Part shown: positions 21,039 through 55,470 of the stretch, one piece after another
How positions within the stretch are numbered: position 1 is the stretch's first letter
How the letters are laid out: each line of letters begins with the position of its first letter
DNA from: Pseudomonadota bacterium
GTDB lineage: Bacteria > Pseudomonadota > Gammaproteobacteria > Burkholderiales > DATLHW01
Length of the DNA: 64,000 bases
Direction of reading: 5' to 3'
NCBI GenBank assembly: GCA_040388195.1
Contig: JAZKCF010000042.1
Coordinates: forward strand, 2,885-66,884
The notes under the pieces: model-generated
Told to the model about the DNA's origin: nothing
Database searches by the model: none
Seen by the model: the letters and a program-made list of their open reading frames with translations, nothing else
Program-made: the position numbers and the translations under genes

Positions 21039-21308
21039 GAGGAACCTCCATCAGTCATTAGCGTTAGAGCAATAAAAAATGCGGAGCTTAAGTAGCTTAA
21101 TCGCCACTATTTAACTATGTCTTCAACTATTTTGATAAGGCAAACTACGGGGTTTTTGTGCTTGTGTTCTATTTAGAGTGGATTTCCTATCAATTGGCGA
21201 AAGGAACATTGATCATTATCCGTAGGACATGTGGCAATTCACGAACTACGGCCTATAACAACTTAACAAACAACCGATTTCAGAATATCTTTTTCTAAAC
21301 TAACGAAT

Positions 21309-21960
21309 ATGATTGCACACTTTCTTAGTGCAAAGTTTGTTTTACCTCTTCCTTGCTTCGGTTTTATACGTGCATTTCAGGAGGGCGTTGGTGCCCTTCG
21401 AACTCGGGAATCGGTGATGGTGCGATTGTGGTCCGATTTTACTGAGCGTGGGCAATGCCAAACAAACACAATGCTGATCGTCGTCATCATATTCCACAGA
21501 TGTCGTTCAAGGTGGAGAATGGTTGGCATATGAAGCGGGGCTACGCCGATGCGGCAGTTTGGGGTTATGGATAGAAAAGGCTTTTTTGGATCATTGGCAA
21601 AGCAGTGGACTCAATGGAGCCGCTGCTTGCTCACATCGACGAAGAAGTCTGCAAAGTCATGGCCTATGGCGCATATGATGGGGTGCCCACTTACCAAACA
21701 ATCGCGCAATTTGGCGACGATATCGAGGTGGTAGTTCCTCCGAGTAAAACGGCCGTTCGCAGCACTGAACTGAATGCAGTAGGGGATGCGTTCGCTATCA
21801 CTTTTTAAGTGCACCAACGCCCCGGTTATTGGGACGAGCGACAGCACCACAAAGTTTTGATCAGGAGCAAATGGGAATAATCAACAAGCTGTTCACTCTT
21901 GCTTATCATGCGGGACTTATAAAAAACGGCCGAAGAATGCAAATAAAGGGGTTCGCGGTA
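21309..21960 (+). pseudogene. decayed IS5-family (IS903-like) transposase, 5'-truncated with several frameshifts
   Basis: Pieces lie in three frames. FVLPLPCFGFIRAF resembles the LPLR..GF block. FKVENGWHMKRGY resembles LKV.GEGEWK. VMAYGAYDGVPTYQTIAQFGDDIEVVVPPSKTAV resembles ADGAYD...IPPR.NA. SFDQEQMGIINKLF resembles RS..E..M...K.LF. All comparisons are from memory of IS903-type transposases. Confidence 0.5.
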
Positions 21961-22186
21961 TATCTAAATACGGCATGGCCTCTATATTTTTTATGTGTTA
22001 ATAAAGTAACGCTCGTTTTATTTTTATCGCAAAATCCCGCAGGCCGTAAATAGTATTGCTAGGCGGTTCCCATTGCCTCCTCATGGCTTAAATACTGTTG
22101 CTCCATAGAATCACGCCAGCGTTTTAAAAAGCCACGCAAAACCGTTACAATGCCGGGTTTTTTGCAACTTCTGGTCCTATTATAAA

Positions 22187-23470
22187 ATGTCACGCACCCC
22201 ACACGCTCCATCCTATTACGCCTCATCGGCCAATCCGAGTCCGTACCGCCCTGAGCTGCATGGCGAAACAACGGCCGATGTTTGCATTATCGGCGCTGGT
22301 TACACCGGACTGTCCGCAGGTCTTCACTTAGCAGAAGCCGGCTTTAAAGTTGTTATCCTCGAAGCCGCCCAAGTCGGCTGGGGCGCTTCTGGCCGCAATG
22401 GCGGTCAGATCGTTCACAGCTATTCGCGCGATATTGATGTTATCGAGCGACGTTATGGCAGCGAGCTTGGTCAAACGCTTGGCGGCATGGCTTTCGAAGG
22501 CGCCAAAATCATTCGTGAACGAGTAGCTAAGTACAACATTCAATGTGATTTGGTAGATGGCGGCGTATTCGCGGCTATTACCAAAAAGCAGTTGGGTCAT
22601 CTCGAATCCCAGAAGGCTTTGTGGGAAAGATACGGCAATACCAGCCTCAAAATGTTGGATGCCGCCGAGACCCAAAAAATCGTTAATACTGATCGCTATG
22701 TAGGCGCACTTCTTGATATGAGCGGCGGACACTTTCATCCGCTCAATCTTGCGCTCGGCGAAGCTGCTGCCTTCGAAGCAAATGGCGGCATCATTTACGA
22801 AAATTCTAAGGTCATTCGCATTGAGGAAGGCCCAAGTCCAATTATTTGGACCAAAAAGCATGGTCGAGTGAAAGCCAAGTACGTCATCGTTGCCGGCAAT
22901 GCCTACCTAGGCAACCTAGTACCAAAACTCGCGTCGATGTCCATGCCTTGCGGTACGCAGGTAATCGCCACCGAGCCGCTCGGAAAGCTGGCCGATGAAA
23001 TCATTCCATCCAACTATTGTGTGGAAGATTGCAACTTTCTATTGGATTACTTCCGTCTTTCCGCTGATAAACGGCTACTGTACGGCGGCGGTGTTATTTA
23101 CGGCGCACGCGATCCAGACCATGTGGAGTCGATCGTACGTCCGCAAATGCTCAAAACCTTCCCGCAATTGAAGGACGTCGATATCGATTACGCGTGGACA
23201 GGCAATTTCCTGCTCACCATGTCCCGTCTACCGGAAGTTGGCCGTATTGGTAGCAACATTTTCTATTCGCAAGGTTGCTCGGGCCATGGGATTACTTATA
23301 CCCACCTAGCCGGCCGTTTATTGTCTGAAGTCATACAAGGACAATCCAGCCGTTTCGATGCCTTCGAGAAATTGCCGCATTACCCGTTCCCAGGGGGGCG
23401 TTGGTTCCGCGTTCCTCTTACAGCCATGGGTGCTTGGTATTATGATTTACGAGACAAATTCGGCATCTAA
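22187..23470 (+). CDS. FAD-dependent oxidoreductase (DAO family, gamma-glutamylputrescine-oxidase-like)
   Basis: VCIIGAGYTGLSAGLHLAEAG dinucleotide-binding motif; the 427-aa length and GCSGHG near the C-terminus fit the family. Confidence 0.8.
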   Translation: MSRTPHAPSYYASSANPSPYRPELHGETTADVCIIGAGYTGLSAGLHLAEAGFKVVILEAAQVGWGASGRNGGQIVHSYSRDIDVIERRYGSELGQTLGGMAFEGAKIIRERVAKYNIQCDLVDGGVFAAITKKQLGHLESQKALWERYGNTSLKMLDAAETQKIVNTDRYVGALLDMSGGHFHPLNLALGEAAAFEANGGIIYENSKVIRIEEGPSPIIWTKKHGRVKAKYVIVAGNAYLGNLVPKLASMSMPCGTQVIATEPLGKLADEIIPSNYCVEDCNFLLDYFRLSADKRLLYGGGVIYGARDPDHVESIVRPQMLKTFPQLKDVDIDYAWTGNFLLTMSRLPEVGRIGSNIFYSQGCSGHGITYTHLAGRLLSEVIQGQSSRFDAFEKLPHYPFPGGRWFRVPLTAMGAWYYDLRDKFGI

Positions 23471-23508
23471 TACCCTTCAGTAAGTCATACTTTCTCAGCA
23501 AAAGGCAG

Positions 23509-24174
23509 TCAGCAGAAATTTTGCAGTATTCTGCGGGCCGCCTGCGCTAAGGAATTCTGATCGAGCAATACTTCAGGAAACCTTTGCCGCTCGCGTTGTC
23601 CCTTTATTTCAATATCCATCCCATAGGGGTCTAAACCCAGCGTCCTTACATGAGGAGGCTGATCGGCAGCGAGTTGTTGTATCAAATCCGCCTCGATTGT
23701 CGGATCCAAGCTACCTGCCATCCTAAACTTCGTAGCATCAAGCCATCCCATTTGACCAAAGCCCTCGATCACTCGTAGTGCTTGGGGTTCAAGGCAAAAA
23801 AAAGAAAAGTCCTGCAATGCTAAATAATCGTCTGCCTCTGGCTGGTAACGACGAAAGCGGGCGGTAAGCTTTTCGTCGCTTGCTATAGGAGTGATCTCTC
23901 CCACCATAGTGACCCGCACACCAGCAAGTACGTCGCCATTTTTTGGCTTAAACATTAAAAAACTCCCTTGCGGGTTAGCAAGGATGTTTTTTGTATGTTC
24001 GGCAAGCTTGCTAATTAAGAAGATCGGGCGGTGATGGTGATCGGTGACAAAAGGCAACGCGGTTACGAACGGAAATCCTGGAACGTGTTGCGAATGACTC
24101 CCAACGGCGCCGAAGCTACAATCGTGTACATGATGGATGACGCTTTCAACCGATAATTGCATTGTGGTGTCCAC
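23509..24174 (-). CDS. PNPOx-like split-barrel protein (HugZ / haem-utilisation-like, COG0748 type)
   Basis: GFPFVTALPFVTDHHHRPIFLISKLAEHTKNILANPQGSFLM matches the conserved N-terminal block of this family as I recall it. The function is unverified. Confidence 0.55.
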   Translation of the reverse strand: MDTTMQLSVESVIHHVHDCSFGAVGSHSQHVPGFPFVTALPFVTDHHHRPIFLISKLAEHTKNILANPQGSFLMFKPKNGDVLAGVRVTMVGEITPIASDEKLTARFRRYQPEADDYLALQDFSFFCLEPQALRVIEGFGQMGWLDATKFRMAGSLDPTIEADLIQQLAADQPPHVRTLGLDPYGMDIEIKGQRERQRFPEVLLDQNSLAQAARRILQNFC

Positions 24175-24409
24175 TGATGCTCCGCTGTTCGCGAAGCGAG
24201 AGTTAAATCGAGGAAATGCCCGATAAGCAAATGTTGCATCGCACCATTACTTGCCGACTACAGTTACTCATCTTTCGCATATATAAGGTGTATATCCGCT
24301 TCAAGTCATTTCCGCAGGATTCGAGGGTGTAGGAAATTCATTCCAATAACTGTATTCCAGTCCCTCCCCTAAATTCAACGTCAGTAAGGAGGAACAAAAT
24401 GACTTTTTT

Positions 24410-24425
24410 TGTGCGTTTGATCACA
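24410..24425. promoter_or_regulatory. CRP/FNR-family-type palindrome TGTGCGTTTGATCACA (one mismatch to TGTGA-N6-TCACA)
   Basis: Read directly. It lies in the fliC / HugZ-like divergent region and overlaps a perfect 16-bp palindrome, ACACTAAATTTAGTGT (24423-24438). Confidence 0.35.
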
Positions 24426-24634
24426 CTAAATTTAGTGTAGAAACCAAGGATCAGACATGCAATTCGATGACATCAACCAATCATCACAAAATATTCAATC
24501 TTAAAGATAGCAGTGATCGCGATGCAGCGTTAACCATTTTTTGAGTAAAAATTTCTTTTTATTAAGAATAAATAACAAATACTTACATCGCCATGTAAAT
24601 GTAATATCTAGATGATCAACTCCCTGAGTTTTAT

Positions 24635-24650
24635 TGTGATCTACGTCACA
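24635..24650. promoter_or_regulatory. perfect CRP-type palindrome TGTGATCTACGTCACA
   Basis: Exact TGTGA-N6-TCACA, 97 bp upstream of the fliC sigma-28 -35 element. It shares the 14-mer tgtgatctacgtca with the site at 35366. Confidence 0.45.
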
Positions 24651-24746
24651 GAATAGGTTTTTCCAGTCTTTTCTTAATAATGATTCCCCCTTAAACCTGT
24701 TAATTTTCCGTTGCGTTAACAGCATTGGGTTTTTAACAACGAGGGC

Positions 24747-24773
24747 TAAATATTGTCCCGCTCGCGCCGATAA
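24747..24773 (+). promoter_or_regulatory. sigma-28 (FliA) class III promoter of fliC
   Basis: TAAA-N15-GCCGATAA (taaa tattgtcccgctcgc gccgataa) is an exact match to the consensus core. It sits about 95 bp upstream of the fliC ATG. Confidence 0.85.
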
Positions 24774-24868
24774 TCTACTTAACACCGGTTGCACTCCCTA
24801 GAGGACCACCGGGGTAAACCACCGGTAAACCCGGGTTTAAATAAGAATCGGTAAAAGGAGCCCTGACC

Positions 24869-26302
24869 ATGCCTCAAATCGTAAACACCAACATTGCTTC
24901 GCTAAATGCGCAACGCAACTTGAATTCTTCCCAATCTTCCTTGCAAGTGTCTCTCCAACGTCTGTCTTCCGGCCTCCGGATCAACAGCGCGAAAGACGAT
25001 GCTGCAGGCTTGGCGATTACAGAACGGTTCAATGCCCAGATCCGCGGCTTGAACCAAGCAGCTCGTAACGCTAATGACGGTATCTCTTTAGCACAAACGG
25101 CTGAAGGCGATTTGGGTCAGATCACCAACAACTTACAGCGGATTCGCGAACTAGCTGTACAGTCAGCTAACGCATCCAACAGCGCATCTGACCGTTCCGC
25201 ACTGAACTCAGAAGCACAACAGCTAATCTCTGAAATTGACCGCGTCTCGCAAGCCTCATCGTTCAACGGTGTTAAATTGCTCGACGGAACATTTTCTGCA
25301 CAAGCCTTCCAAGTCGGTGCTAACAGCACCGCAAACGACCAGATCACCATCTCGTCGATCGCAAGTGCTCGTACCACTGCACTTGGTGGCGTAACGCAAG
25401 CAAGCCTCAGCTCATCGGCCCCAAACACCACTGCATTAGGTGCAACCGACGTAGTGATTAACGGTATCGCAATCAGCGCTTCCGCAGCCAGCGCCGATAC
25501 GCTGTCTACCGCTAGCAACTCCGCCAGCGCGATCGCAAAAGCTGCAGCCATCAACGCAGCTTCAGGCACGACCGGTGTAACGGCGCAAGTGAATGCAACC
25601 ATAGCTGCAGGTACCACCTACGGCGCTGCTGCAAACACGGGCTCGGTCGACATCAATGGCGTCACCATCGCCATCACAACAACGGCAGCAGCGGCTACTA
25701 CCCGCCAAAACGTCGTGACAGCCATCAACGCTAAAACCTCGCAAACCGGCGTAACCGCTCTTGACAACGGTTCAACGGTAGAACTGAGCGCAGGTGATGG
25801 ACGGAACATCGTTGTAGCCAACTACACCACGATCACTGCCGCCGGCTCCACACTAGGCGCAGCAGGTACCTATGCCGGTACCTACACCTTGACATCCGCC
25901 AACCAGATCACGGTTGCAGCAGGTGCAGGTACGATCGCTAACTCAGGCTTAACCGCCGGTACGTATGCAACAGCAAGTAGCGGTAGCGCGATCAGCACGT
26001 TGAATATATCGACCGCATCGGGCGCCACCAGCGCTCTGTCTGCGATCGATTCAGCGCTAACCGCGGTAAACAGCTCCCGCGCTTCACTTGGTGCATTTCA
26101 AAACCGCTTCCAGTCAGTCGTATCGCAAGCACAAACGACTGCTGAAAACTTGACGGCTTCTCGTAGCCGGATTCAAGACGCAGACTTCGCAGCGGAATCT
26201 GCGAACCTGACCCGCGGTCAGATCTTGCAACAAGCTGGTACGGCGATCTTAGCGCAAGCCAACAGCTTGCCTAACAGCGTGCTGAGCTTGCTCCGCGGCT
26301 AA
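24869..26302 (+). CDS. fliC: flagellin
   Basis: The N-terminus [19 protein letters not shown]...[19 protein letters not shown] and the C-terminus [31 protein letters not shown] fit flagellin. The central domain is Ala/Thr/Ser-rich. Confidence 0.97.
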
Positions 26303-29914: not shown

Positions 29915-30955
29915 ATGCCGGTAGATGTTTCATCTTTAGCTAGTCTTTTCCCTTCCCTCCCGCGATTGCTGGGAGGCAGTACAGCGTCTGCAAATAGCAC
30001 ATCAACGACATCAACTTTAGCTGCGGGTCAGATAGTAGCGGCAACTGTTGTGCAAAACCTCGATGCAAACCGGCTTATCGCGACAATAGGCGGGCAAAAC
30101 TACGATTTGCGTCTCCCTATTGCCACCACCATTGGCGAAACACTGCAATTGGAAGTTGTTTCAACTGAACCGGAGCCCTCCTTCCGCCTGCTTAATACGA
30201 CGCCAGGCTCACAAGGCAAAGAACAAAACGTAACGTTCAGCGACACCGCGCGGTTAATGCAATCAGCCAGCGCCACGTTGTCCAATAGTAAAGAGACATT
30301 GCCGGCGAGATTGCGTGCCGATCCAGTTCCGTTAGCGCAGGAGTCCCCTGCAGCGCCAGCCAAACTGGCCGACAATTTAAAATCTGCGATTAGTCAAAGC
30401 GGTTTCTTCTATGAATCGCATCAAGCGCAGTGGGTTAAAGGCAATTATTCATTGGAAGCCTTACGCCAAGAACCGCAGGCTTCGCCGCAGCAAGCAGCGT
30501 CTGCAAACGTGCAGCAAAACCTTGAACAACCAAATCGGCCATTGTCGGGAACCATAACTGGCAAAGATCAACAGCTGTTGCTATCAGCCAATCAAACCGC
30601 GCCTACTTTGGTCGAGCATCAAATCGCAGCTTTAGGTGGCGCACCAATCGAATGGTATGGTCAAGCTTGGCCCGGGCAACCGATACATGTATCGATTCAA
30701 CGCGACAAAGATCCTGGCGCATTTGATGACCCTTCGCAAAAAGGATGGGAAAGCCATCTCACTTTGGATTTACCTAATCTAGGTACCGTCGACGCGACCA
30801 TGCATCTCTCTGCAACCGGCGTGCGAATCACCATTAACGCCGCAGAAGAAACATCGACCGAAGCTTTGCGTACTGCCACCAGAGATTTGGTCGATACACT
30901 GGAAGGCATAGGAATCAAAGTGCTTGGCATAGGATTGGGTCATGGCAGAGGATAA
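29915..30955 (+). CDS. FliK-like protein (second hook-length-control paralogue, Flg_hook-like C-terminal domain)
   Basis: The C-terminal WESHLTLDLPNLGTVDATMHLSATGVRITINAAEETSTEALRTATRDLVDTLEGIGIKV parallels the FliK block at 40740-41834 (AEIHLNPENLGPVDVHIKID...ITFTALNPDTRNALENAMPQLRNMLTESGISV). Confidence 0.7.
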   Translation: MPVDVSSLASLFPSLPRLLGGSTASANSTSTTSTLAAGQIVAATVVQNLDANRLIATIGGQNYDLRLPIATTIGETLQLEVVSTEPEPSFRLLNTTPGSQGKEQNVTFSDTARLMQSASATLSNSKETLPARLRADPVPLAQESPAAPAKLADNLKSAISQSGFFYESHQAQWVKGNYSLEALRQEPQASPQQAASANVQQNLEQPNRPLSGTITGKDQQLLLSANQTAPTLVEHQIAALGGAPIEWYGQAWPGQPIHVSIQRDKDPGAFDDPSQKGWESHLTLDLPNLGTVDATMHLSATGVRITINAAEETSTEALRTATRDLVDTLEGIGIKVLGIGLGHGRG

Positions 30956-31253
30956 ACCAGCAGACAAGCAATTTGTGGCCGCAGCTCTGGCCTATCGAGC
31001 CGGCGCGAGCGCGCCGACAATTACTGCCAAAGGCCGCGGCAAAGTTGCCGAGGAAATTATTCGCCGTGCGAAGGAATCCGGCGTATTCGTACATGAATCG
31101 AAAGAAATGGTGGCTTTGCTGATGGAACTCGACCTCGATCAGCAGATTCCACCCACGCTTTACCGCGTGGTCGCCGAATTGCTAGCGTGGATTTACCGTA
31201 TTGAAAACCGCCTGCCTGCAACTTTAACGGCGCCGGTGGGACCTAAGAAATGA
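30942..31253 (+). CDS. stand-alone FlhB C-terminal-domain-like protein (EscU/YscU/HrcU switch family fragment type)
   Basis: AAALAYRAGASAPTITAKGRGKVAEEIIRRAKESGVFVHESKEMVALLMELDLDQQIPPTLYRVVAELLAWIY aligns with the FlhB region just after the NPTH autocleavage site. There is no transmembrane domain and no NPTH. It overlaps the upstream gene by 14 nt. Confidence 0.85.
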   Translation: MAEDKPADKQFVAAALAYRAGASAPTITAKGRGKVAEEIIRRAKESGVFVHESKEMVALLMELDLDQQIPPTLYRVVAELLAWIYRIENRLPATLTAPVGPKK

Positions 31254-32114: not shown

Positions 32115-32230
32115 ACTTACGCAAAATTGTCCCAGCAAGGGTTGCGCAGGAGTTTCGAGCAGCATGCTGCGAGCCTGCGAAACGGTTTGCGCATGCAAGC
32201 GCAACGCCGCTGCGACAGTTTTGCGTAAAT
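32115..32230. repeat. TTACGCAAAA-ended palindromic element, long variant (R3, 116 bp)
   Basis: The ends are acttacgcaaaa...ttttgcgtaaat, with internal palindromes gcagcatgctgc and ttgcgc-N6-gcgcaa. It is collinear with R4 at 50958-51130. It fills the ycgR-like / TPR gene gap and touches the downstream ATG. Confidence 0.8.
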
Positions 32231-34757
32231 GCTAATGAAAAAAATTGGGCGTAACGATCCTTGCCCATGTGGCAGCGGCAAGAAAAATAAGCAGTGCTGC
32301 GGACCGCGCGAAAACTTCCAATCGGTAAAACTCCGCTCCGTAAATGTATCCCCTCCCGTGCCTCTTCAAGATGCGTTGGCACATCATCAAGCCGGGCGTT
32401 TGCCGGAAGCGGAAGCCATCTATCGGCAGATACTTCAAATGCAACCAAACGATGCGGACGCACATCATTTGTTAGGTGTAATTGCCATTCAAGTAGGGAA
32501 AAGTGAAGTCGCCATCGAACTCATTGGCAAGGCGCTCAAATTGCGGCCTGATTTTCCCGAGGCATACATTAATTTGGGAAACGCGCTTAGTGATCAAAAC
32601 AGGTTGGACGAAGCAATTGCGTGTTATCGCCAAGCAATCAAATTCAAATCCGATGCTGCCGAAGCGCACAATAATTTAGGAATGGCGCTTAGAGATCAAG
32701 GCAAATTAAGCGACGCAATTGCCTGTTATCGACAAGCAATCACGTTTAAATCAAATAATCCTGAGGCGTATGTCAATCTTGGAAATGCGCTTAAGGAACA
32801 AGGCAAAATAGATGAGGCAATTGCTTGTTATCACCAAGCAATCCAGTGCAAGCCCGATTTTGCCGATGCGCATAATAGCTTAGGAATCGCACTTAAGAAT
32901 CAAGGCAAGATAAACGAGGCGATTATTTGCTATCGACAAATACTCACGTTTCAGCCTGATAACGCCGCAGCACACAATAATTTAGGAGCAGCGTACAAGG
33001 ACCAAGGTAAATTGGAAGAAGCGATTGGCTGTTACGGTGTAGCGATCAAATACAAATCCGATTTTGCCGAGGCTTACATTAATCTGGGAAATGCACTTAA
33101 GGTCCAAGGCAAATTAGACCAGGCAGTTGCATGCTTGAAACATTCGCTAGCGATCAAAGAAACCATCGAAGCAAAAATCGATTTTGCTGCCTGTATAAAA
33201 AACGTTTCTTTCACGCAAGACGACCCTGAGAATCGACAGCTCATCATTAGAGCTCTATCTGAACCGTGGGGCCGGCCGGCCGATCTCGCGGGCACAGGCA
33301 TAAATATTCTCAAATTGAATCAAAACATGAGCGAATGCACAGAGCGTGCAGCGCAAACATGGCCCACCAGATTATCAGCGCAAGAACTATACGGATCTTC
33401 CGGATTTTCTTCCGTTGCAGATGATCGATTGCTGCAGTGCTTGTTGGAGAACGTTCCGATTTGCGATGTAGAACTAGAGCGTTTTTTAACCATGGCAAGA
33501 CTGGCAATGCTGAATGCCACCATAGGCCCTGCTGTTTCCGTTGAACCAAACGAACAAATTTTTTATTGCGCTTTGGCTCGACAATGTTTCATCAACGAAT
33601 ATATTTTTTCCTATACCGACGAAGAGTTCGATCAAGCACAATCGTTACGAGAACGCGTCGTCACTGCAATAGCAGCTAAATCATCTGTTCCTGCCGCATG
33701 GTTGATAAGCGTCGCCGCCTACTTCCCTTTGTTCTCTTTACCCACCATTGAAGCGCTATTCGATCAATCCTGGCCTGAAGCGGTTAATGCCTTGCTGGTG
33801 CAACAAATACGAGAACCGCGGGAAGAACAGCAGTATCGCGCTCAAATTCCCAGGCTTACACCCATTGATGATGAGGTTTCCTTATTAGTTCAGCAACAAT
33901 ATGAGGAGAATCCGTACCCTAGGTGGATTAAATGTCAGCAACGCGATAATCACCTGTCTCTGGAAGCCTATTTACGGCAACAGTTCCCGTTTGCGCCGAT
34001 TAAACCATTAGAGAAAAACGATGCGATCGATATTCTGATTGCTGGCTGCGGAACTGGCTGGCAATCAATTCAAACGGCGCAGCAATTTCGCCAGTCCCGA
34101 GTATTGGCCATTGATTTAAGTGTAACCAGTCTTTGCTACGCAAAAAGAAAGACGCACGAGCTTGGCTTGGAAAACATTGAATACGCGTGTGCCGACATCA
34201 CGAAGCTTGAATCCAGCGGGCGAACGTTTGATGCCATTGAGTCCATTGGTGTGCTGCACCATCTCGCGGACCCGAAAGCCGGTTGGCAAATGTTACTTTC
34301 ATTACTACGCCCTAATGGATTTATGCGCTTGGGTTTTTACAGCGAATATGCACGTCGCAATATTATTGCAGCACGGCAATTCATTGACCAACAAGGATAT
34401 GCAGGAAACGCAGCTGACATACGGCGTTGTCGCCAAGATTTAATATCCATGAAAGATAACGAGCAATTTAAAAAGCTACTGTCGTTCAATGATTTTTACG
34501 GAACTAGTGAATGTCGCGATCTGTTATTCCATGTTCACGAACATCATTTCACGTTACCGCAAATTAAGAAAATTTTAGAGGAATTTGATTTGGAATTTAT
34601 CGGGTTTTTTCTTGAAGCTCATGTAACCCAAAAATATGAAGTTCGCTTCGCGGATGACACATCAAAGACAAACCTGGATTACTGGAATATTTTTGAAACC
34701 GAAAATCCAGATATTTTTTCCGGCATGTATCAGTTCGTTGTACAAAAACGAGGATAA
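32229..34757 (+). CDS. SEC-C motif / TPR repeat / class I SAM-dependent methyltransferase fusion protein
   Basis: N-terminal GRNDPCPCGSGKKNKQCCG (SEC-C zinc motif), about nine 34-aa TPRs (AIACYRQAI.FK....AEA..NLG.AL..QGK), and C-terminal ILIAGCGTGWQSI (motif I). The start may be ATG 32235. Confidence 0.85.
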   Translation: MLMKKIGRNDPCPCGSGKKNKQCCGPRENFQSVKLRSVNVSPPVPLQDALAHHQAGRLPEAEAIYRQILQMQPNDADAHHLLGVIAIQVGKSEVAIELIGKALKLRPDFPEAYINLGNALSDQNRLDEAIACYRQAIKFKSDAAEAHNNLGMALRDQGKLSDAIACYRQAITFKSNNPEAYVNLGNALKEQGKIDEAIACYHQAIQCKPDFADAHNSLGIALKNQGKINEAIICYRQILTFQPDNAAAHNNLGAAYKDQGKLEEAIGCYGVAIKYKSDFAEAYINLGNALKVQGKLDQAVACLKHSLAIKETIEAKIDFAACIKNVSFTQDDPENRQLIIRALSEPWGRPADLAGTGINILKLNQNMSECTERAAQTWPTRLSAQELYGSSGFSSVADDRLLQCLLENVPICDVELERFLTMARLAMLNATIGPAVSVEPNEQIFYCALARQCFINEYIFSYTDEEFDQAQSLRERVVTAIAAKSSVPAAWLISVAAYFPLFSLPTIEALFDQSWPEAVNALLVQQIREPREEQQYRAQIPRLTPIDDEVSLLVQQQYEENPYPRWIKCQQRDNHLSLEAYLRQQFPFAPIKPLEKNDAIDILIAGCGTGWQSIQTAQQFRQSRVLAIDLSVTSLCYAKRKTHELGLENIEYACADITKLESSGRTFDAIESIGVLHHLADPKAGWQMLLSLLRPNGFMRLGFYSEYARRNIIAARQFIDQQGYAGNAADIRRCRQDLISMKDNEQFKKLLSFNDFYGTSECRDLLFHVHEHHFTLPQIKKILEEFDLEFIGFFLEAHVTQKYEVRFADDTSKTNLDYWNIFETENPDIFSGMYQFVVQKRG
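32373..33190 (+). repeat. tandem 102-bp coding repeats (TPR units) inside the fusion gene
   Basis: Consecutive 34-codon units are recognisably similar at the DNA level, e.g. gcaattgcgtgttatcgccaagcaatc / gcaattgcctgttatcgacaagcaatc / gcaattgcttgttatcaccaagcaatc. Confidence 0.8.
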
Positions 34758-34924: not shown

Positions 34925-35233
34925 TTAGACTTGCATATTCATAATGTCATGATAAGCGGAAACCAACTTGTTCCTTACTTGTACTGCCGCTTGAAATGAA
35001 ATGTTGGCTTTTTGCATCGACACCATCGCTTCTTCCAATGTGACGCCATTTTGGTCGAGCTGAAATTGCGTCGCGAGCGATTGCGCTTGATGTTGGGACT
35101 CGTTAACCTGATCAAGCGAGCGCTTGAGCATTTCGAGAAAGGAGCCTGATCCGGCGGCCTGTGTTGCGGGTGCGCTAGTTACGCCAGCTGAAGCCAAAGC
35201 GCTTTGCAGTGCATCAATTTTAGGAATCTCCAT
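34925..35233 (-). CDS. fliE: flagellar hook-basal body complex protein FliE
   Basis: The C-terminus MQKANISFQAAVQVRNKLVSAYHDIMNMQV fits FliE. I prefer the internal ATG at 35233 (MEIPKIDAL), which has a GAGG Shine-Dalgarno sequence. Confidence 0.9.
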   Translation of the reverse strand: MEIPKIDALQSALASAGVTSAPATQAAGSGSFLEMLKRSLDQVNESQHQAQSLATQFQLDQNGVTLEEAMVSMQKANISFQAAVQVRNKLVSAYHDIMNMQV

Positions 35234-35365
35234 GGTACACCTCTTCACAGATTGCTCACTGTGCGACGATAGCATCACCTTTCTTGCTTGAGCCCTCGAA
35301 ACAGAAATACAAAAATGACCTAATTTTCATGATCCCAGGCTAACCTGCTATCCCCACCGCCAAAA

Positions 35366-35381
35366 TGTGATCTACGTCATA
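35366..35381. promoter_or_regulatory. CRP-type palindrome TGTGATCTACGTCATA in the fliE/fliF divergent region
   Basis: One mismatch to TGTGA-N6-TCACA. The first 14 nt are identical to the fliC-upstream site. Confidence 0.4.
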
Positions 35382-35538
35382 ACCTCGGACCGTCATTCGT
35401 ACCACACTCTTTGAATACCGTGACAGGTTGGTAACGACGGAGGTCAAAATGCCAACGAAAACCCGCCTTATTCTCCGCATCACCGACGACGGTCGCTCCG
35501 CATAATCGTCCCATGTCTAATAACACTTACATAGGTCG

Positions 35539-37092
35539 ATGAATTCAATGCAACGCCTCCTGCAATTACCAGCTCGACAGCTCTTAGGCTTACTCGTCGC
35601 CGTCGCTGCGGTGATTGCTTTATCAGTTGGTGCATGGATTTGGGGGCAAACACCGGATTACAAGGTGCTGTACAGCAACCTATCAGACCGTGACGGCGGT
35701 GCGATTGTACAGTCGCTTAATCAAATGAACGTGCCTTACAAATTTACCGATGGCGGTGGCGCGCTCATGGTCCCATCCAATCTACTTTATGACACCCGGC
35801 TAAAACTCGCCTCCCAAGGTTTACCCCGTGGAAGTACCTCGGGCTTCGAAATCATGGAGCAGCAGAAGTTAGGTACTACCCAATTTCAGGAACAAATTAA
35901 TTATCAGCGGTCCTTGGAAGGCGAACTGGCTAAATCAATACAATCGCTTGCGTCGGTACAGGGCGCACGCGTACATCTTGCCATTCCAAAACCAACGGTT
36001 TTCCTCCGCGAACAACAAAAACCTAGCGCGTCAGTACTAGTTAATCTTTACCCCGGTAAAACCCTCGATCGCGCGCAAGTAAGCGGCATTTTGCATTTAG
36101 TATCAAGTAGTCTGCCGGAACTCAGTGCGAAGAATGTCAGTATCGTTGATCAAAACGGTAATCTTCTCACCAACCAAAATGACGCCGCAGGCCTTGATCC
36201 GAGCAAGCTCGCTTACACCCAAGAAGTAGAAAAAAGCTACATTGAGCGGATCAATCGCATCGTCGAACCGATTACCGGCGCCAATAATCTCCGAACGCAA
36301 GTAACAGCCGACATCGATTTCAATCAGAGCGAACAAACCGCCGAAACCTACAAGCCGAACGGCACGCCAGCAAATGCCGCGATGCGTAGCCAGCAATCAG
36401 CTGAATCTACTAATAGCGCCGGCGGCACAGCGCCTAGCGGTGTACCCGGCGCTCAGTCCAATCAGCCGAACGCGCAAGGCGCAAGCGCCGCGCCCGGAAG
36501 CGCGAATAACTCTGCAGCGCAAAAACAAAACACCGTCAATTATGAATTGGATAAAACGGTACACCTTACTCGTCAATCAGTAGGCGCGCTCAAACGGCTA
36601 TCTGCAGCGGTTGTCGTTAATAACCGCAGAGTGGTTGATGCGAAAGGGAAACCCACCTATATCCCTTTGGAAAAAGCACAACTAGACCAAATCAACACAC
36701 TCGTCAAAGAGGCAATGGGATTTAGCGAGACACGAGGCGACACTTTAAATGTGGTAAACGCGCCTTTTAGTGAACCGGAAAATGAAGTAATTCCAGCAGT
36801 GCCTTTATGGAAGCAGCCTGACAATATCGCGCTGGCCAAAGAGGTTGGCAAAAATATCCTAATTATTGCATTTGTTCTCTACCTCGTTTTAGGCGTACTG
36901 AAACCGCTGTTGAAAACCCTACTCTCAGCAGCGCCAGCGGCAGCGCCGCAGCTGACCGCGCAAGAAACACTCGCATCGATCAATAGCAGTGCTAATTCAA
37001 ACCATAGCAATAATTTGCAATTGGCCAAACAGCTTGCACAACAAGATCCGAAAATTGTCGCCAATGTTGTTAAAAGCTGGGTAAGCGAATGA
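35539..37092 (+). CDS. fliF: flagellar M-ring protein FliF
   Basis: N-terminal transmembrane segment, the YKVLYSNLSDRDGGAIVQSLNQMNVPYKF block, a second transmembrane segment near the C-terminus, and overlap with fliG. Confidence 0.95.
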   Translation: MNSMQRLLQLPARQLLGLLVAVAAVIALSVGAWIWGQTPDYKVLYSNLSDRDGGAIVQSLNQMNVPYKFTDGGGALMVPSNLLYDTRLKLASQGLPRGSTSGFEIMEQQKLGTTQFQEQINYQRSLEGELAKSIQSLASVQGARVHLAIPKPTVFLREQQKPSASVLVNLYPGKTLDRAQVSGILHLVSSSLPELSAKNVSIVDQNGNLLTNQNDAAGLDPSKLAYTQEVEKSYIERINRIVEPITGANNLRTQVTADIDFNQSEQTAETYKPNGTPANAAMRSQQSAESTNSAGGTAPSGVPGAQSNQPNAQGASAAPGSANNSAAQKQNTVNYELDKTVHLTRQSVGALKRLSAAVVVNNRRVVDAKGKPTYIPLEKAQLDQINTLVKEAMGFSETRGDTLNVVNAPFSEPENEVIPAVPLWKQPDNIALAKEVGKNILIIAFVLYLVLGVLKPLLKTLLSAAPAAAPQLTAQETLASINSSANSNHSNNLQLAKQLAQQDPKIVANVVKSWVSE

Positions 37093-38084
37093 ACGAAGAA
37101 GGAGTCAACGCCAGCGCTATCTTGCTGCTTTCAATAGGTGAAGAAGCGGCGTCCGAGGTATTTAAATATCTCGCGCCAAATGAGGTACAAAAACTCGGGT
37201 TGGCGATGGCTAGTCTTGGCAGTGTTACTCGCGACAGAATCGACTCGGTTTTAGAGCGATTTCGCACCAATGCCGAGCAGCACACTTCCATCGGCATGGA
37301 TTCCGACGATTACATTCGCAGTGTTCTCGTTAAAGCATTAGGTAGTGACAAAGCCAATTTACTGTTGGACCGTATTTTGCAAGGCGGCGACGCGAGCGGG
37401 ATTGAAGGTCTGAAATGGATGGCCTCTCCAAGTGTCGCCGAATTAATTAAGAATGAACATCCACAAATCATTGCTTCAATTTTGGTGCACTTGGAACGGG
37501 ATCAAGCTTCCGAAATATTGAACTGCTTTACCGACCGTTTACGCAACGACACGCTATTACGCATTGCAACGCTGGAAGGCATTCAACCCAACGCGTTGCG
37601 TGAATTGAACGATGTGCTCACTAAATTGCTTTCCGGTAGCGATCAGCACAAAAAAACCGCTATGGGCGGCGTTCGTGCAGCGGCGGAAATTCTCAATTTC
37701 ATCGGCACAGCGCACGAAACATCGATCATCGACAATGTGCGTGAGTACGACGCCGACCTAGCGCAAAAAATCCTCGACGAAATGTTTGTCTTCGATAATC
37801 TTATTGATGTCGATGATCGCGGAATGCAAGTCATATTGCGTGAAATTCAATCCGATGCGCTGATCATTGCGCTCAAAGGAGCGAACGAAGCATTACGCGA
37901 AAAAGTCTTCAAAAATATGTCGCAGCGTGCTGCAGAGACACTAAAAGAGGATTTGGAAGCCAAAGGTCCAGTGCGTTTATCCGAAGTGGAAGCACAACAA
38001 AAGGACATTCTCAAAGTTGTGCGCCGTCTAGCAGACGAAGGTCAAGTTGTCCTTGGCGGAAAAGGCGAGGATTCCTTTGTCTAG
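37089..38084 (+). CDS. fliG: flagellar motor switch protein FliG
   Basis: GEEAASEVFKYL, EHPQIIASIL and MFVFDNL blocks; 331 aa. Confidence 0.95.
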   Translation: MNEEGVNASAILLLSIGEEAASEVFKYLAPNEVQKLGLAMASLGSVTRDRIDSVLERFRTNAEQHTSIGMDSDDYIRSVLVKALGSDKANLLLDRILQGGDASGIEGLKWMASPSVAELIKNEHPQIIASILVHLERDQASEILNCFTDRLRNDTLLRIATLEGIQPNALRELNDVLTKLLSGSDQHKKTAMGGVRAAAEILNFIGTAHETSIIDNVREYDADLAQKILDEMFVFDNLIDVDDRGMQVILREIQSDALIIALKGANEALREKVFKNMSQRAAETLKEDLEAKGPVRLSEVEAQQKDILKVVRRLADEGQVVLGGKGEDSFV

Positions 38085-38706
38085 CCGATTCATCCCGAAA
38101 GACCAAACTACCGACTTTAAGCGTTGGGAGATTGGTTCATTTGACAGCTCCGGCAAAAGGCCTGCGCCTGCGACCCCACCTCCTCCGCCAAGTGAAGAAA
38201 TCAAACTTCCAACCGCAGCGGAATTGGAAGCGATACAGCAACAAGCTTATCAGGAAGGATATCAGGCGGGGCTGAAGCAAGCGCAAATGGAAGGAGAGCA
38301 ACTACGCAAACTGTCCCTGTCATTTACTCAATCGATTAACGAAATCGAAAAATCGGTTGCGGAAGAACTATTAACGCTTTCCCTAAATATTGCCAAACAA
38401 GTATTGCGTGAAGCACTTGCCGTCAAACCGGAACTTGTTCTTCCTGTCGTTCGTGAAGCACTGCATAGCCTGTCAGAAGCACAACAAAATAACATTCTTA
38501 GACTTAATCCAGCCGACGTTGAAGTAGTTACTCGGCACCTCGGCGACGAACTCAATGTCGATGGCTGGAGAATTATTGCAGATGAGCAAATTGAAGCCGG
38601 CGGCTGCCGAGTCGAGTCGGCTAATGGCGAAGTAAATGCAACTCTCGCTACTCGCTGGCAACGGATTATCTCTACCTTAGGACGCGACGATGGCTGGCTC
38701 TCCTGA
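38077..38706 (+). CDS. fliH: flagellar assembly protein FliH
   Basis: Position between fliG and fliI, a central coiled-coil Glu/Gln/Ala-rich region, and C-terminal [22 protein letters not shown] chose the TTG at 38077 for its GAGG Shine-Dalgarno sequence 6 nt upstream; the ORF is open from 38047. Confidence 0.8.
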
Positions 38707-40117: not shown

Positions 40118-40146
40118 TGATCGACACTCACTAGGGGATATCGTAA

Positions 40147-40596
40147 ATGCCCACCGCCGCCCAGCTGAAATTTCTCATCGAACGCGCCCAACGTCAAAGT
40201 GACACCAACGTTCAACAGCTCGCCAAGACAAGGACCGCCCTCTCAGGTGCTGAAGCGCAACTTGAACTACTGCTTCGCTATCGTAAAGACTACCAGACAC
40301 AATTGGGCGTAACGGTAAGCAACGGAACGGACAGTGAGCGACTGCGCAATTTTCAGCGCTTCATTGGCAATATTACGCAAGCAATCGATCAACAAGGCCG
40401 GGAAATAGAAACGCGTAAAGCCGCAGCGCAACGGGCGGACTTAGTATGGCGCGAAAGCCAACGAGTTTTGCAGTCCTATCAGATGCTCGAGAAAAGAGCC
40501 GCATCGCATGTTCGCCTTCGGGAACAAATAAAAGAACAAAAACAAAATGATGAATTCGCCACCAAAAATTTTATACGCCTTACTAGAGAGAGTTGA
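40147..40596 (+). CDS. fliJ: flagellar export chaperone/stalk protein FliJ
   Basis: 149-aa coiled-coil protein directly after fliI, with the YRKDYQ motif region. Confidence 0.8.
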   Translation: MPTAAQLKFLIERAQRQSDTNVQQLAKTRTALSGAEAQLELLLRYRKDYQTQLGVTVSNGTDSERLRNFQRFIGNITQAIDQQGREIETRKAAAQRADLVWRESQRVLQSYQMLEKRAASHVRLREQIKEQKQNDEFATKNFIRLTRES

Positions 40597-40739
40597 TGTA
40601 TCAAGCACTCATTCCATTTCACATTAGAAACGATACTTTGTCAGTTATCGCTGGCCGTACTACTTGCACTGTCTGCGCACTGCCTTCGCGCCTCGCTTCT
40701 GATGTGAATGGAATCAATAAATAGATATGGAGAATTACA

Positions 40740-41834: not shown

Positions 41835-41953
41835 CGTTTGGCGATCACACAAGGTAGGTGGCTTTTTCTGGGCTTTTTGCAGCTTCGATCCAAGCTCGCA
41901 GTAAGCATAATCGTGTAACAAGTAAGCGTGCCGCCAGTTACCGGTGGCCATGA

Positions 41954-42508: not shown

Positions 42509-42510
42509 CC

Positions 42511-43503: not shown

Positions 43504-43509
43504 TGAGCA

Positions 43510-43640: not shown

Positions 43641-43648
43641 CCCTCAAT

Positions 43649-45504: not shown

Positions 45505-45505
45505 C

Positions 45506-49956: not shown

Positions 49957-49958
49957 AG

Positions 49959-54420: not shown

Positions 54421-54447
54421 CTATCGGCAGTTTTTTAAAAAACTTTA
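54421..54447 (-). promoter_or_regulatory. sigma-28 class III promoter of flgKL
   Basis: The reverse strand reads taaa gttttttaaaaaact gccgatag (TAAA-N15-GCCGATAg). The -10 element ends 24 nt upstream of the flgK ATG. Confidence 0.75.
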
Positions 54448-54558
54448 GAGTTTTTTATTGCACCTCTAAATAAAACCTGCACGTTTATTACCCCCAATAT
54501 ACTCTCCACCTTGCGAATCCACATTAGCATTCGACTAGTAAGAAAATTATGAACTACG

Positions 54559-55470
54559 TCACGCAATGTCTCTCAATGACTTAGTCATGATTTGCGCCAG
54601 TTTTTCGCCATAGCGAGGATCAGTTGCATATCCTGAACGACCCATTTCATGTGCAAAACTGGTCGCATCATTAGCCGCCCTCATTGCGTTTGCGTAACGC
54701 GGATTATTGGCGATCATCTTTGCGTAGTCTCCAAATGACTCTTCATAAGAAGCGTACGCACGGAATTTCTGTACCACTTTTTTAGGCACACCATTTACGA
54801 ATTCTGTAGTAACTGCATCTACAGTAGCCCCTTTCCAGTTTGCGCCGGCCTTAATACCGAAGAGATTAAAACTGGGCGTGCCATCCTTTCCTTTCACTTC
54901 ATGCCTTCCCCAGCCACTTTCCAATGCTGCCTGACCAAGAATGAATTTAGCTGGGATACCGCTAGTACGGCTGGCTGCTTCGGCAGCGCCGCGATAATTT
55001 TCCACAAAATTCTTTTTCAGTGTTTTAACATTTGATTGCTCGGAAGCGTGCGGTACCGCGTTGAGCGGAAGATCATGTCGTAACGGCTTTGCCGGACCAT
55101 TGGCTTTTTTCAATGGCAAAAATTCTTTTCCCGGCAACGCCTCATTCTTGTCTCCAGGCTGCGACGAGGACTGGCTACGTTCAATCTGCTTCACGATTGC
55201 ATCAGCTAATCCCAAACTCTTTCCGGAAGCGATATTTTTCGTTAACTGGGCATCGAATAAACCGGTTGCCATGCGCGATGCATCGCTTTCCAATGGGTCG
55301 TCGTGCGGCAAAGACTCCCGCATACCCTTCAACATCATATTCAGAAACATGGCTTCGAATTCGTGAGCGGCTTTGCGAGTACCCTCCGCACTGCCGCTAT
55401 GAGCCAAACGTTTGGTGTCGCTCAAACCTTTGAGATCAAGTGCGTTATCAACATTGTAAATAGTAGTCAT
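54559..55470 (-). CDS. flgJ: flagellar rod assembly protein / peptidoglycan hydrolase FlgJ
   Basis: N-terminal rod-binding block (AAHEFEAMFLNMMLKGMRES) and C-terminal glucosaminidase block (ILGQAALESGWG, NLFGIKA). Confidence 0.92.
   Translation of the reverse strand: MTTIYNVDNALDLKGLSDTKRLAHSGSAEGTRKAAHEFEAMFLNMMLKGMRESLPHDDPLESDASRMATGLFDAQLTKNIASGKSLGLADAIVKQIERSQSSSQPGDKNEALPGKEFLPLKKANGPAKPLRHDLPLNAVPHASEQSNVKTLKKNFVENYRGAAEAASRTSGIPAKFILGQAALESGWGRHEVKGKDGTPSFNLFGIKAGANWKGATVDAVTTEFVNGVPKKVVQKFRAYASYEESFGDYAKMIANNPRYANAMRAANDATSFAHEMGRSGYATDPRYGEKLAQIMTKSLRDIA

What the first reader, a model, noticed from the sequence alone, without database searches (positions are those of the whole stretch)
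24410..24650. Two CRP-type TGTGA-N6-TCACA palindromes upstream of the fliC sigma-28 promoter
TGTGATCTACGTCACA (24635-24650) is an exact match and TGTGCGTTTGATCACA (24410-24425) has one mismatch. Both lie in the 690-bp AT-rich region upstream of fliC. Related sites occur at 35366 and 61884, also in flagellar control regions. From base-frequency reasoning alone, an exact 10-position palindrome is expected far less than once per 64 kb, and I saw no exact copies outside these intergenic regions. This points to a CRP/FNR-family regulator acting directly on structural flagellar promoters. No regulator gene of that family is in the window, so its identity is open: cAMP-CRP/Vfr-like, or a c-di-GMP-binding Clp/Bcam1349-like protein, which would fit the c-di-GMP gene density here.
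Basis: partly seen in the sequence, partly recalled or inferred. Interest (0 to 1): 0.6.

Follow-up and report, generated by a model that had tools for sequence, protein, structure and literature searches.

The report
CRP-type operator palindromes at flagellar promoters
An uncultured betaproteobacterium carries four near-perfect copies of the classic CRP-type DNA palindrome, all in control regions of its flagellar operons; they are probably binding sites for an unidentified CRP-family regulator, but its closest sampled relatives lack them and nothing shows what binds them or to what effect.

Summary
TGTGA-N6-TCACA occurs exactly at 24635 (upstream of fliC) and 61884 (flgB/flgA), and with one mismatch at 24410 (upstream of fliC) and 35366 (fliE/fliF). 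These are the only hits with at most one mismatch in 64 kb.

The enrichment is real:
- In 4.7 kb of flagellar intergenic DNA, 4 hits were seen against 0.12 expected.
- It is the top non-homopolymer palindrome in an unbiased enumeration.
- The family-wise probability of at least 4 hits with at least 2 exact is 0.002.

The sites are not part of a longer repeat. Two of them share the 14-mer TGTGATCTACGTCA, which is close to the ideal E. coli CRP site.

- The nearest relatives (FliS 78%, FlgA 59% identical; FlhDC/sigma-28 hierarchy) keep the promoters but have no such site at any of the three loci.
- About 0.9 Mb of flagellar loci from about 80 more distant relatives shows only background.
- Predicted site positions, about 140 bp upstream of predicted start sites, do not fit classical CRP activation.
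- No CRP-family gene lies in the window, and the rest of the genome could not be reached.

Most likely these are lineage-specific operators for a CRP-type regulator. Its ligand and the sign of its effect are unknown. Interest is modest.

The parts
24635..24650 (.). Site A: exact CRP-type palindrome TGTGATCTACGTCACA, upstream of fliC. Its centre is about 138 bp upstream of the predicted sigma-28 start.
   Evidence: It shares the 14-mer TGTGATCTACGTCA with site C. It is also present in the Logan contig L010.
24410..24425 (.). Site B: TGTGCGTTTGATCACA (1 mismatch), 225 bp upstream of site A. It lies about 364 bp upstream of the fliC start site and about 255 bp upstream of the divergent PNPOx-like gene.
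   Evidence: It overlaps a 13-codon mini-ORF preceded by AAGGAGG (read).
35366..35381 (.). Site C: TGTGATCTACGTCATA (1 mismatch) in the divergent fliE/fliF control region. Its centre is about 140 bp from the predicted fliF start and 140 bp from the fliE ATG.
   Evidence: It is absent from the aligned region of relative L004.
61884..61899 (.). Site D: exact palindrome TGTGACATGGATCACA in the divergent flgB/flgA control region.
   Evidence: It lies in a segment of about 100 bp that relatives L011 and L013 lack.
54548..54563 (.). Candidate weak site E: TATGAACTACGTCACG (2 mismatches; shares CTACGTCA with sites A and C). It lies at the flgJ stop codon, about 142 bp upstream of the predicted flgK sigma-28 start.
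   Evidence: On its own it could be a chance match.
24747..24773 (+). fliC sigma-28 (FliA) promoter, TAAATATT-N11-GCCGATAA.
   Evidence: only exact match in the window. It is conserved in L004.
54421..54447 (-). flgK sigma-28-type promoter, TAAAGTTT-N11-GCCGATAG.
35500..35508 (+). Class II -10-like element GCATAATCG upstream of fliF. The same 9-mer lies upstream of fliL at 41905, and GCATAATC is conserved at both places in L004.
24869..26302 (+). fliC (flagellin), the gene downstream of sites A and B.
   Evidence: Flagellin_N and Flagellin_C.
34925..35278 (-). fliE, divergent from fliF (35539-37092, + strand). Together they flank site C.
61323..61721 (-). flgB, first gene of the flgB-L operon on the minus strand, divergent from flgA (61991-62695, + strand). 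Together they flank site D.

Best explanation
The four palindromes, and possibly a fifth weak one upstream of flgK, are operators for a dimeric transcription factor of the CRP/FNR superfamily that has a CRP-type (TGTGA-reading) recognition helix. The factor is encoded elsewhere in the genome.

This lineage acquired the sites in the control regions of three or four flagellar operons: fliC, fliE/fliF, flgB/flgA and perhaps flgK. That places a small-molecule-responsive input directly on structural flagellar promoters of an FlhDC/sigma-28 hierarchy, rather than only on the master operon.

Shown here: the sites exist, they are statistically concentrated in flagellar intergenic DNA, they are not part of a longer repeat, and they are lineage-specific.

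Inferred: that a protein binds them, and that it belongs to the CRP family.

Unknown: the ligand (cAMP, c-di-GMP or another) and the sign of the effect. The far-upstream positions, about 140 bp from predicted start sites, argue against classical class I or class II activation. They favour modulation from upstream of the FlhDC or FliA promoter complex (DNA bending or co-regulation), or action on the divergent partner promoters.
For: - Exact and near-exact matches occur only in flagellar intergenic regions.
- Enrichment is 4 seen against 0.12 expected. The motif ranks top among non-trivial palindromes, with family-wise P = 0.002 for at least 4 hits with at least 2 exact.
- Sites A and C share 15 of 16 bases, including the full spacer (TGTGATCTACGTCA). 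By my own knowledge this is close to the ideal E. coli CRP site TGTGATCTAGATCACA.
- Every site has at least one extended TGTGATC half-site.
- There is no flanking similarity, so the sites are not a mobile repeat.
- Three site centres fall 138-142 bp upstream of predicted start sites: fliC, flgK and fliF.
- There is precedent for TGTGA-N6-TCACA readers controlling flagella. Clp binds the rpoN2-fleQ promoter and is released by c-di-GMP (bioRxiv 10.64898/2026.02.02.703240). Vfr represses the fleQ promoter (PMC3930126, citing Dasgupta 2002).
Against: - No orthologous site exists in the nearest relatives at any of the three loci, although their promoter blocks are conserved.
- Across all 93 fetched loci (980 kb) there are 8 hits with at most 1 mismatch. 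Two are the window's own (L010); 6 fall in about 0.95 Mb of other loci.
- No equivalent palindrome is enriched in the relative.
- Positions relative to predicted promoters are not those of characterised CRP-dependent promoters.
- No CRP-family gene lies in the 64-kb window, and the rest of the genome is unavailable.
- The family-wise probability for the hit count alone (at least 4) is only 0.085.
- In Xanthomonas campestris, deleting clp does not change fliC promoter activity (PMC8828458). Known CRP-type control of flagella acts at the top of the cascade.
Confidence: 0.5

Rival explanations
1. The palindromes are real protein-binding sites, but for a regulator outside the CRP/FNR superfamily. 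It would be some other dimeric helix-turn-helix protein specific to this lineage that happens to read TGTGA-N6-TCACA and is dedicated to flagellar genes.
For: - All hits in the window are flagellar. None lies in the remaining 4.7 kb of non-flagellar intergenic DNA, which looks more like a dedicated regulator than a global CRP.
- The identical asymmetric spacer TCTACG in two sites, and CTACGTCA in three, suggests specificity beyond the two pentamers.
- The sites are lineage-specific.
Against: - By my own knowledge, TGTGA-N6-TCACA with this spacing is the signature of CRP-type proteins in many phyla (CRP, Vfr, Clp, GlxR, SyCRP1).
- No candidate regulator gene of any family is present in the window.
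- 64 kb is too small a sample to judge whether the regulator is global or dedicated.
Confidence: 0.15
2. The matches are non-functional. They would be a chance cluster of a short palindrome in AT-rich intergenic DNA, picked out because the motif is famous.
For: - They are not conserved in the closest relatives.
- The family-wise P for at least 4 hits alone is 0.085.
- Positions are unlike those in known CRP promoters.
- One similar isolated 1-mismatch hit occurs in a distant relative's fliE/fliF region, at a background rate.
Against: - Two exact plus two 1-mismatch hits compare with expectations of 0.005 and 0.12.
- Family-wise P = 0.002 for the joint criterion.
- All four hits lie in just 3 of the 22 flagellar intergenic regions: the classic fliC, fliE/fliF and flgB/flgA control regions.
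- Six of six spacer bases are identical between two sites.
Confidence: 0.15
3. The sites are functional CRP-type operators, but their targets are not the flagellar promoters the reader named. Site B, and perhaps site A, would control the divergent PNPOx-like gene or an unannotated transcript in the 694-bp spacer. Sites C and D would act mainly on fliE and flgB rather than on fliF and flgA.
For: - Site B is about 255 bp from the PNPOx-like start codon and about 364 bp from the fliC start site.
- The DNA between 24175 and about 24740 has no homology to the relative's fliC upstream region. It adjoins a lineage-specific DAO/PNPOx insertion next to an IS remnant.
- A sigma-70 -10-like AATAAT lies at 24676-24681, 33.5 bp downstream of the centre of site A (read).
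Against: - No credible ORF or Rfam RNA lies in the spacer.
- The candidate sigma-70 promoter would put site A at -45.5, four bases off the class II position.
- Sites C, D and E have no non-flagellar neighbours.
Confidence: 0.1
4. The palindromes are the binding sites of the flagellar master regulator FlhD4C2, or remnants of a small mobile repeat (MITE or REP).
For: - Sites C and D lie where FlhDC boxes are expected, in the fliE/fliF and flgB/flgA divergent regions.
- The clade has flhDC.
- IS remnants occur in the window.
Against: - Relatives that carry flhDC keep other conserved blocks in these regions but not the palindrome.
- By my own knowledge, the E. coli FlhDC box is unrelated in sequence.
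- Similarity between the sites stops at the 16-mer, with no shared flanks.
Confidence: 0.03

Closest known systems
Escherichia coli cAMP-CRP operator (TGTGA-N6-TCACA), including the CRP site that activates the flhDC master operon
   Same: The pentamer half-sites and the 6-bp spacing are identical. Sites A and C match the idealised site TGTGATCTAGATCACA at 14 and 13 of 16 positions. Both link to motility. The E. coli consensus and the flhDC site are from my own knowledge.
   Different: In E. coli, CRP acts on the master operon from a class I position. Here the sites sit on structural class II and class III operon control regions, about 140 bp or more upstream of predicted start sites. flhDC is not in the window. 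No CRP gene has been identified.
Clp of Xanthomonadales (Xanthomonas, Stenotrophomonas, Lysobacter): a CRP homologue whose DNA binding is inhibited by c-di-GMP
   Same: It has the same consensus, TGTGA-N6-TCACA, and couples c-di-GMP to flagellar expression (bioRxiv 10.64898/2026.02.02.703240). The window is rich in c-di-GMP genes.
   Different: Clp acts at the rpoN2-fleQ promoter at the top of a sigma-54 cascade. Few motility genes carry the motif, and deleting clp leaves the Xcc fliC promoter unchanged (PMC8828458). The organism here is a betaproteobacterium with an FlhDC/sigma-28 hierarchy, and no Clp orthologue has been shown.
Pseudomonas aeruginosa Vfr at the fleQ promoter
   Same: It is a CRP homologue that reads a CRP-like palindrome and down-regulates flagellar genes (PMC3930126).
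   Different: It has a single site at the master regulator's promoter and acts by repression there, not at several structural operons.
Regulators that bind many flagellar promoters directly (Listeria MogR; Caulobacter CtrA at class II promoters)
   Same: The logic is the same: one factor has sites in several flagellar operon control regions. This comparison is from my own knowledge.
   Different: The protein families and motifs are unrelated (TTTT-N5-AAAA; TTAA-N7-TTAA). The comparison is by wiring only.

Membership tests
CRP-type operator (binding site of a CRP/Vfr/Clp-like protein) | Inverted pentamers TGTGA and TCACA separated by exactly 6 bp, with G (not T) at the CRP/FNR-discriminating position. 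| tested here: met
   There are two exact and two 1-mismatch sites. All have GTGA/TCAC cores. Each has at least one extended TGTGATC half-site.
CRP-type operator (binding site of a CRP/Vfr/Clp-like protein) | Located in non-coding promoter DNA and more frequent there than chance allows. | tested here: met
   All four hits with at most 1 mismatch are in flagellar intergenic regions: 4 seen against 0.12 expected. Family-wise P = 0.002 for at least 4 hits with at least 2 exact.
CRP-type operator (binding site of a CRP/Vfr/Clp-like protein) | Site centred at a characterised activating position (-41.5, -61.5, -71.5, -82.5 or -92.5) or overlapping the core promoter for repression. | tested here: not met
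   Against predicted promoters, the centres fall near -138 (fliC), -140 (fliF), -142 (flgK) and -364 (site B). Start sites are predicted, not mapped, and the fliE, flgB and flgA promoters could not be placed.
CRP-type operator (binding site of a CRP/Vfr/Clp-like protein) | A cognate CRP/FNR-family regulator (cNMP-binding domain plus HTH_Crp) is encoded in the genome. | not testable with these tools
   None is in the 64-kb window. The remaining MAG contigs could not be retrieved.
CRP-type operator (binding site of a CRP/Vfr/Clp-like protein) | Sites conserved at orthologous promoters in related genomes (phylogenetic footprint). | tested here: not met
   They are absent at fliC, fliE/fliF and flgB/flgA in the nearest relatives L004, L011 and L013. 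Across 93 loci (980 kb) the rate is background only.
CRP-type operator (binding site of a CRP/Vfr/Clp-like protein) | Demonstrated protein binding and ligand dependence. | not testable with these tools
   This needs EMSA, DAP-seq or footprinting.
Clp/Bcam1349-type c-di-GMP-responsive CRP homologue regulon | The regulator binds c-di-GMP, which changes its DNA binding. | not testable with these tools
   There is only circumstantial context: six c-di-GMP-related genes in the window.
FlhD4C2 box | Conserved in class II promoters of relatives that carry flhDC. | tested here: not met
   Relatives with flhDC lack the palindrome but keep other blocks.
Dispersed repeat (MITE/REP) | Copies share sequence beyond the palindrome, or have terminal repeats with target duplications. 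| tested here: not met
   A pairwise comparison of +/-100 bp around each site finds only the 14-16-mer itself.

The most novel reading that the evidence does not exclude
A soil betaproteobacterial lineage has recently rewired an FlhDC/sigma-28 flagellar hierarchy. It would have done so by planting operators for a nucleotide-sensing CRP-type regulator, possibly a c-di-GMP-responsive, Clp-like one, about 140 bp upstream of the start sites of both class II (fliF, flgB) and class III (fliC, flgK) operons. A second messenger would then gate every tier of flagellar gene expression directly, from a fixed far-upstream position that matches no known CRP promoter class.
Probability: 0.2. Interest if true: 0.55.

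Novelty: new member of a known kind. Interest (0 to 1): 0.32.

Why it matters
If the sites are functional, this would be a case of CRP-type control applied directly to structural flagellar operons in a betaproteobacterium. Characterised systems (CRP at flhDC, Vfr at fleQ, Clp at rpoN2-fleQ) apply it at the master regulator instead. It would also be an example of rapid, lineage-specific gain of a whole set of operators, and it would add a direct transcriptional route from a nucleotide signal to flagellin synthesis. For now it is a well-supported sequence prediction in one uncultured genome. It has no regulator, no mapped promoters and no conservation, so its practical value is as a modest, testable lead.

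Tried and rejected
- **Phylogenetic footprinting.**
  - A genome scan with FliS gave only Nitrosospira briensis, an uncultured betaproteobacterium and a Paenibacillus. None has the motif at orthologous positions.
  - The nearest metagenomic relative (FliS 78% identical; L004-L009) and FlgA relatives (59%; L011-L013) were aligned at fliC, fliE/fliF, flgB/flgA and fliK/fliL. Promoter blocks are conserved and the palindromes are absent.
  - The only 1-mismatch hit in L004 (20188, upstream of fliL) is not orthologous to the window's half-site at 41843.
- **Metagenome scan with a FliS alignment.** It returned 80 loci that show only background motif frequency.
- **Repeat or MITE hypothesis.** Rejected.
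- **Rfam.** No family was found in the window.
- **ORFs in the spacer upstream of fliC.** None is credible.
- **GATC/Dam idea.** Every site contains GATC, but GATC is not over- or under-represented (266 seen against 249 expected), so I dropped it.
- **Reaching the rest of the MAG.** I tried exact-protein look-ups to search for a CRP gene. FliE, FlgB, FlgN and FlgA were not on record. FliS returned only a 10.7-kb Logan contig that lies inside the window.
- **First enrichment simulation.** It timed out and was re-run in vectorised form.
- **Literature.** Searches for a betaproteobacterial precedent (Bcam1349, CRP-like Burkholderia) found nothing relevant. One search was rejected for syntax.
- **Placing classical class I or class II promoters next to the sites by eye.** This was inconclusive. 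The best candidate puts site A at -45.5.

Full report
**What is in the sequence.**
- TGTGATCTACGTCACA at 24635-24650, exact.
- TGTGCGTTTGATCACA at 24410-24425, one mismatch.
- TGTGATCTACGTCATA at 35366-35381, one mismatch.
- TGTGACATGGATCACA at 61884-61899, exact.

They are the only matches to TGTGA-N6-TCACA with at most one mismatch in the 64-kb window.

**Gene context.** ORF listing and Pfam scans confirm a betaproteobacterial-style flagellar cluster.
- fliC-flaG-fliD-fliS-fliT runs from 24869 onward.
- A FliK-like gene, an FlhB C-terminal-domain gene, ycgR and a TPR/methyltransferase gene follow.
- fliE (minus strand) is divergent from fliFGHIJKLMNOPQR (35539-46270).
- An MshEN-type ATPase, an EAL-HDOD protein and a PilZ protein come next.
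- flgL-flgB (minus strand, 51133-61721) is divergent from flgA-flgM-flgN.

Sites A and B (24635 and 24410) lie in the 694-bp AT-rich spacer between a PNPOx-like gene (minus strand) and fliC. Site C (35366) lies between fliE and fliF. Site D (61884) lies between flgB and flgA. Similar promoters precede flgK and flgM.

**Is it more than chance?**
- Exact matches: 2 seen against 0.07 expected for the window.
- Within the 4,747 bp of flagellar intergenic DNA, first-order Markov shuffles give 0.005 exact, 0.12 at one mismatch or fewer, and 1.8 at two mismatches or fewer. The observed counts are 2, 4 and 7.
- To guard against picking a famous motif after the fact, I enumerated all 5,120 palindromes of form 5-Nx-5 (x = 4-8). 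TGTGA-N6 is the best-represented one in flagellar intergenic DNA after A/T homopolymers.
- In shuffles, some palindrome with at least 2 G/C per half-site reaches 4 hits 8.5% of the time. It reaches 4 hits with 2 exact only 0.2% of the time.
- The three extra 2-mismatch hits in intergenic DNA are also flagellar: 35410 in fliE/fliF, 40703 before fliK, and 54548 before flgK.

I conclude the cluster is very unlikely to be random, although the evidence is not overwhelming once all palindromes are considered.

**Anatomy of the sites.**
- Similarity between sites stops at the palindrome. Comparing +/-100 bp around every site finds nothing but the 14-16-mer, so these are not copies of a mobile repeat.
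- Sites A and C share 15 of 16 bases, including the whole asymmetric spacer (TGTGATCTACGTCA).
- The 8-mer CTACGTCA occurs three times in the window, each time inside a site: A, C and the weak flgK site.
- Each of the four sites has one perfect extended half-site, TGTGATC.
- By my own knowledge, the idealised E. coli CRP site is TGTGATCTAGATCACA. Sites A and C are therefore close to a best-possible CRP operator. The G in GTGA is the base that separates CRP-type from FNR-type (TTGAT-N4-ATCAA) sites.

**Positions relative to promoters.** Three predicted -10 elements are available: fliC (24766-24773), flgK (54428-54421, minus strand), and the conserved class II-like CATAAT before fliF (35501-35506). 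Measured from them, site centres fall about 138, 142 and 140 bp upstream of the inferred start sites. Site B is about 364 bp upstream of the fliC start.

This regularity is intriguing. However, it rests on predicted promoters and includes the weak 2-mismatch site. None of these positions corresponds to classical CRP class I or class II architecture. In fliE/fliF, the block conserved with the relative lies about 33-67 bp upstream of the inferred fliF start. That is where an FlhDC box is expected, and the palindrome lies upstream of it.

**Comparative evidence.** The window's FliS and FlgA are 100% identical to proteins annotated from a MAG, 'Pseudomonadota bacterium', on a 67-kb contig.

*Nearest relative.* The closest available relative has FliS 78% identical and FlgA 59% identical (loci L004-L009 and L011-L013). 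It has the same gene order, and flhD-flhC lie about 4.5 kb upstream of fliC. The clade therefore uses an FlhDC/sigma-28 hierarchy.

Several elements are conserved in that relative:
- the fliC sigma-28 promoter and 5'UTR;
- the element GCATAATC before fliF and fliL;
- several blocks in flgB/flgA.

There is no CRP-like palindrome at fliC, fliE/fliF or flgB/flgA. Site D sits in a segment of about 100 bp that the relatives lack. The same enumeration of palindromes on the relative's intergenic DNA shows nothing comparable.

*More distant relatives.* Across 93 fetched loci (980 kb), including 80 metagenomic FliS-linked loci, there are only 8 hits with at most one mismatch. Two of them are the window's own sequence in the Logan contig L010. 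One, in two near-identical loci, happens to lie in a fliE/fliF spacer. The motif set is therefore specific to this lineage. The relatives are diverged enough that most intergenic DNA no longer aligns, so absence there weakens but does not exclude function.

**The regulator.** No CRP/FNR-family gene is in the window. Every ORF of 200 aa or more is assigned, and the gaps contain only FliQ, short spurious ORFs and two transposase remnants. Attempts to reach other contigs of the same genome failed. The c-di-GMP gene density is real: GGDEF-EAL, an HD-GYP-like protein, YcgR, an MshEN ATPase, EAL-HDOD and PilZ. It is circumstantial.

**What is known elsewhere.**
- Clp of Stenotrophomonas and Xanthomonas binds TGTGA-N6-TCACA and is released by c-di-GMP. 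It controls motility mainly through the rpoN2-fleQ promoter, and few motility genes carry the motif (bioRxiv 10.64898/2026.02.02.703240).
- In X. campestris, deleting clp does not alter fliC promoter activity (PMC8828458).
- Vfr represses the fleQ promoter in P. aeruginosa (PMC3930126).
- E. coli CRP acts at flhDC (my own knowledge).

Known CRP-type inputs thus enter at the top of the cascade. Here the candidate operators sit on structural operons of two tiers. Limited searches found no betaproteobacterial precedent.

**Explanation and rivals.**
- **Best reading (about 0.5).** These are lineage-specific operators for a CRP-type dimer encoded elsewhere. It modulates fliC, fliE/fliF, flgB/flgA and perhaps flgK. 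The ligand and the sign of the effect are unknown. The far-upstream position suggests an accessory or architectural role rather than classical activation.
- **A dedicated regulator from another family that reads the same palindrome (0.15).**
- **A non-functional chance cluster (0.15).**
- **Real CRP-type sites aimed at other promoters (0.1).** Candidates are the divergent PNPOx-like gene or an unannotated transcript.
- **FlhDC boxes or repeat remnants (0.03).** This is largely refuted.

**Verdict.** The feature is a new instance of a well-known operator type in an unusual place, in one uncultured genome, without conservation or an identified regulator. Interest is modest (0.32). The more novel reading is a second-messenger-responsive CRP-type factor gating all tiers of an FlhDC/sigma-28 hierarchy from a fixed position of about -140. 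I give that roughly 0.2 probability.

Noticed in passing
window 24642, 35373 and 54555 (site centres) versus predicted -10 elements at 24766-24773, 35501-35506 and 54428-54421: Three site centres lie 138-142 bp upstream of the start sites inferred from predicted promoters: fliC sigma-28, fliF class II-like and flgK sigma-28. This is a constant far-upstream spacing with no known CRP promoter class. It rests on predicted promoters only, and one of the three sites is the 2-mismatch one.
   Followed up: partly
window 35500-35508 and 41905-41913; L004 about 13805 and about 20310: The element GCATAATCG (-10-like CATAAT) precedes both fliF and fliL, and GCATAATC is conserved in the nearest relative. 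It is probably the class II (FlhDC-dependent) core promoter. A conserved AAATGCC...CCTTATTC block lies about 30-65 bp upstream in fliE/fliF and is a candidate FlhDC box.
   Followed up: partly
window 24778-24830; L004 5958-6005: The fliC 5'UTR is almost identical between the window and the 78%-FliS relative, although the rest of the upstream region does not align. It folds into a predicted hairpin with a GGA in the loop. The 2-sequence alignment shows no covariation. It could be a post-transcriptional control element.
   Followed up: partly
window 21605-21808 (+) and 63758-63901 (+): These short ORFs look like transposase remnants. One has a DDE-like '...AYGAYDG...' fragment, in the 1.1-kb gap 21039-22186. 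The other has an IS6-like '...MHMIRK...' C-terminus. This was judged by eye only.
   Followed up: no
window 22187-24174 and 32229-34757, compared with L004: Two insertions are absent from the syntenic relative. One is a DAO-family oxidoreductase plus a PNPOx-like gene, between the cytochrome c peroxidase genes and fliC. The other is an 842-aa SEC-C/TPR/methyltransferase protein between ycgR and fliE, possibly a flagellin-modifying enzyme. The first insertion replaces the DNA upstream of about 24740, which holds sites A and B.
   Followed up: partly
window 24399-24440: A 13-codon mini-ORF (MTFFVRLITLNLV) is preceded by a perfect Shine-Dalgarno sequence, AAGGAGG, and overlaps site B. A second mini-ORF of 15 codons starts at 24458.
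   Followed up: no
window 46340-50471: Three c-di-GMP-related genes are embedded between fliR and flgL: an MshEN-domain T2SSE-type ATPase, an EAL-HDOD protein and a single-domain PilZ protein. They are flanked by two unusually long spacers, 49562-50123 and 50472-51132.
   Followed up: no
window 29915-31253 and 40740-41834: There are two FliK-like (Flg_hook) genes. The first is followed by a 103-aa protein that consists only of the FlhB C-terminal domain. The relative L004 has the same arrangement.
   Followed up: no
L004 1-1500: The relative carries two FlhD-family genes plus flhC, about 4.5 kb upstream of fliC. The window has no flhDC at the syntenic place.
   Followed up: no
L083 and L093, 13733-13748: A distant relative has AGTGAAGCAAATCACA (1 mismatch) in its fliE/fliF spacer, about 45 bp upstream of the fliF ATG. 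This single occurrence is compatible with chance.
   Followed up: partly
window 14286-16124: This 612-aa ORF has no Pfam match.
   Followed up: no
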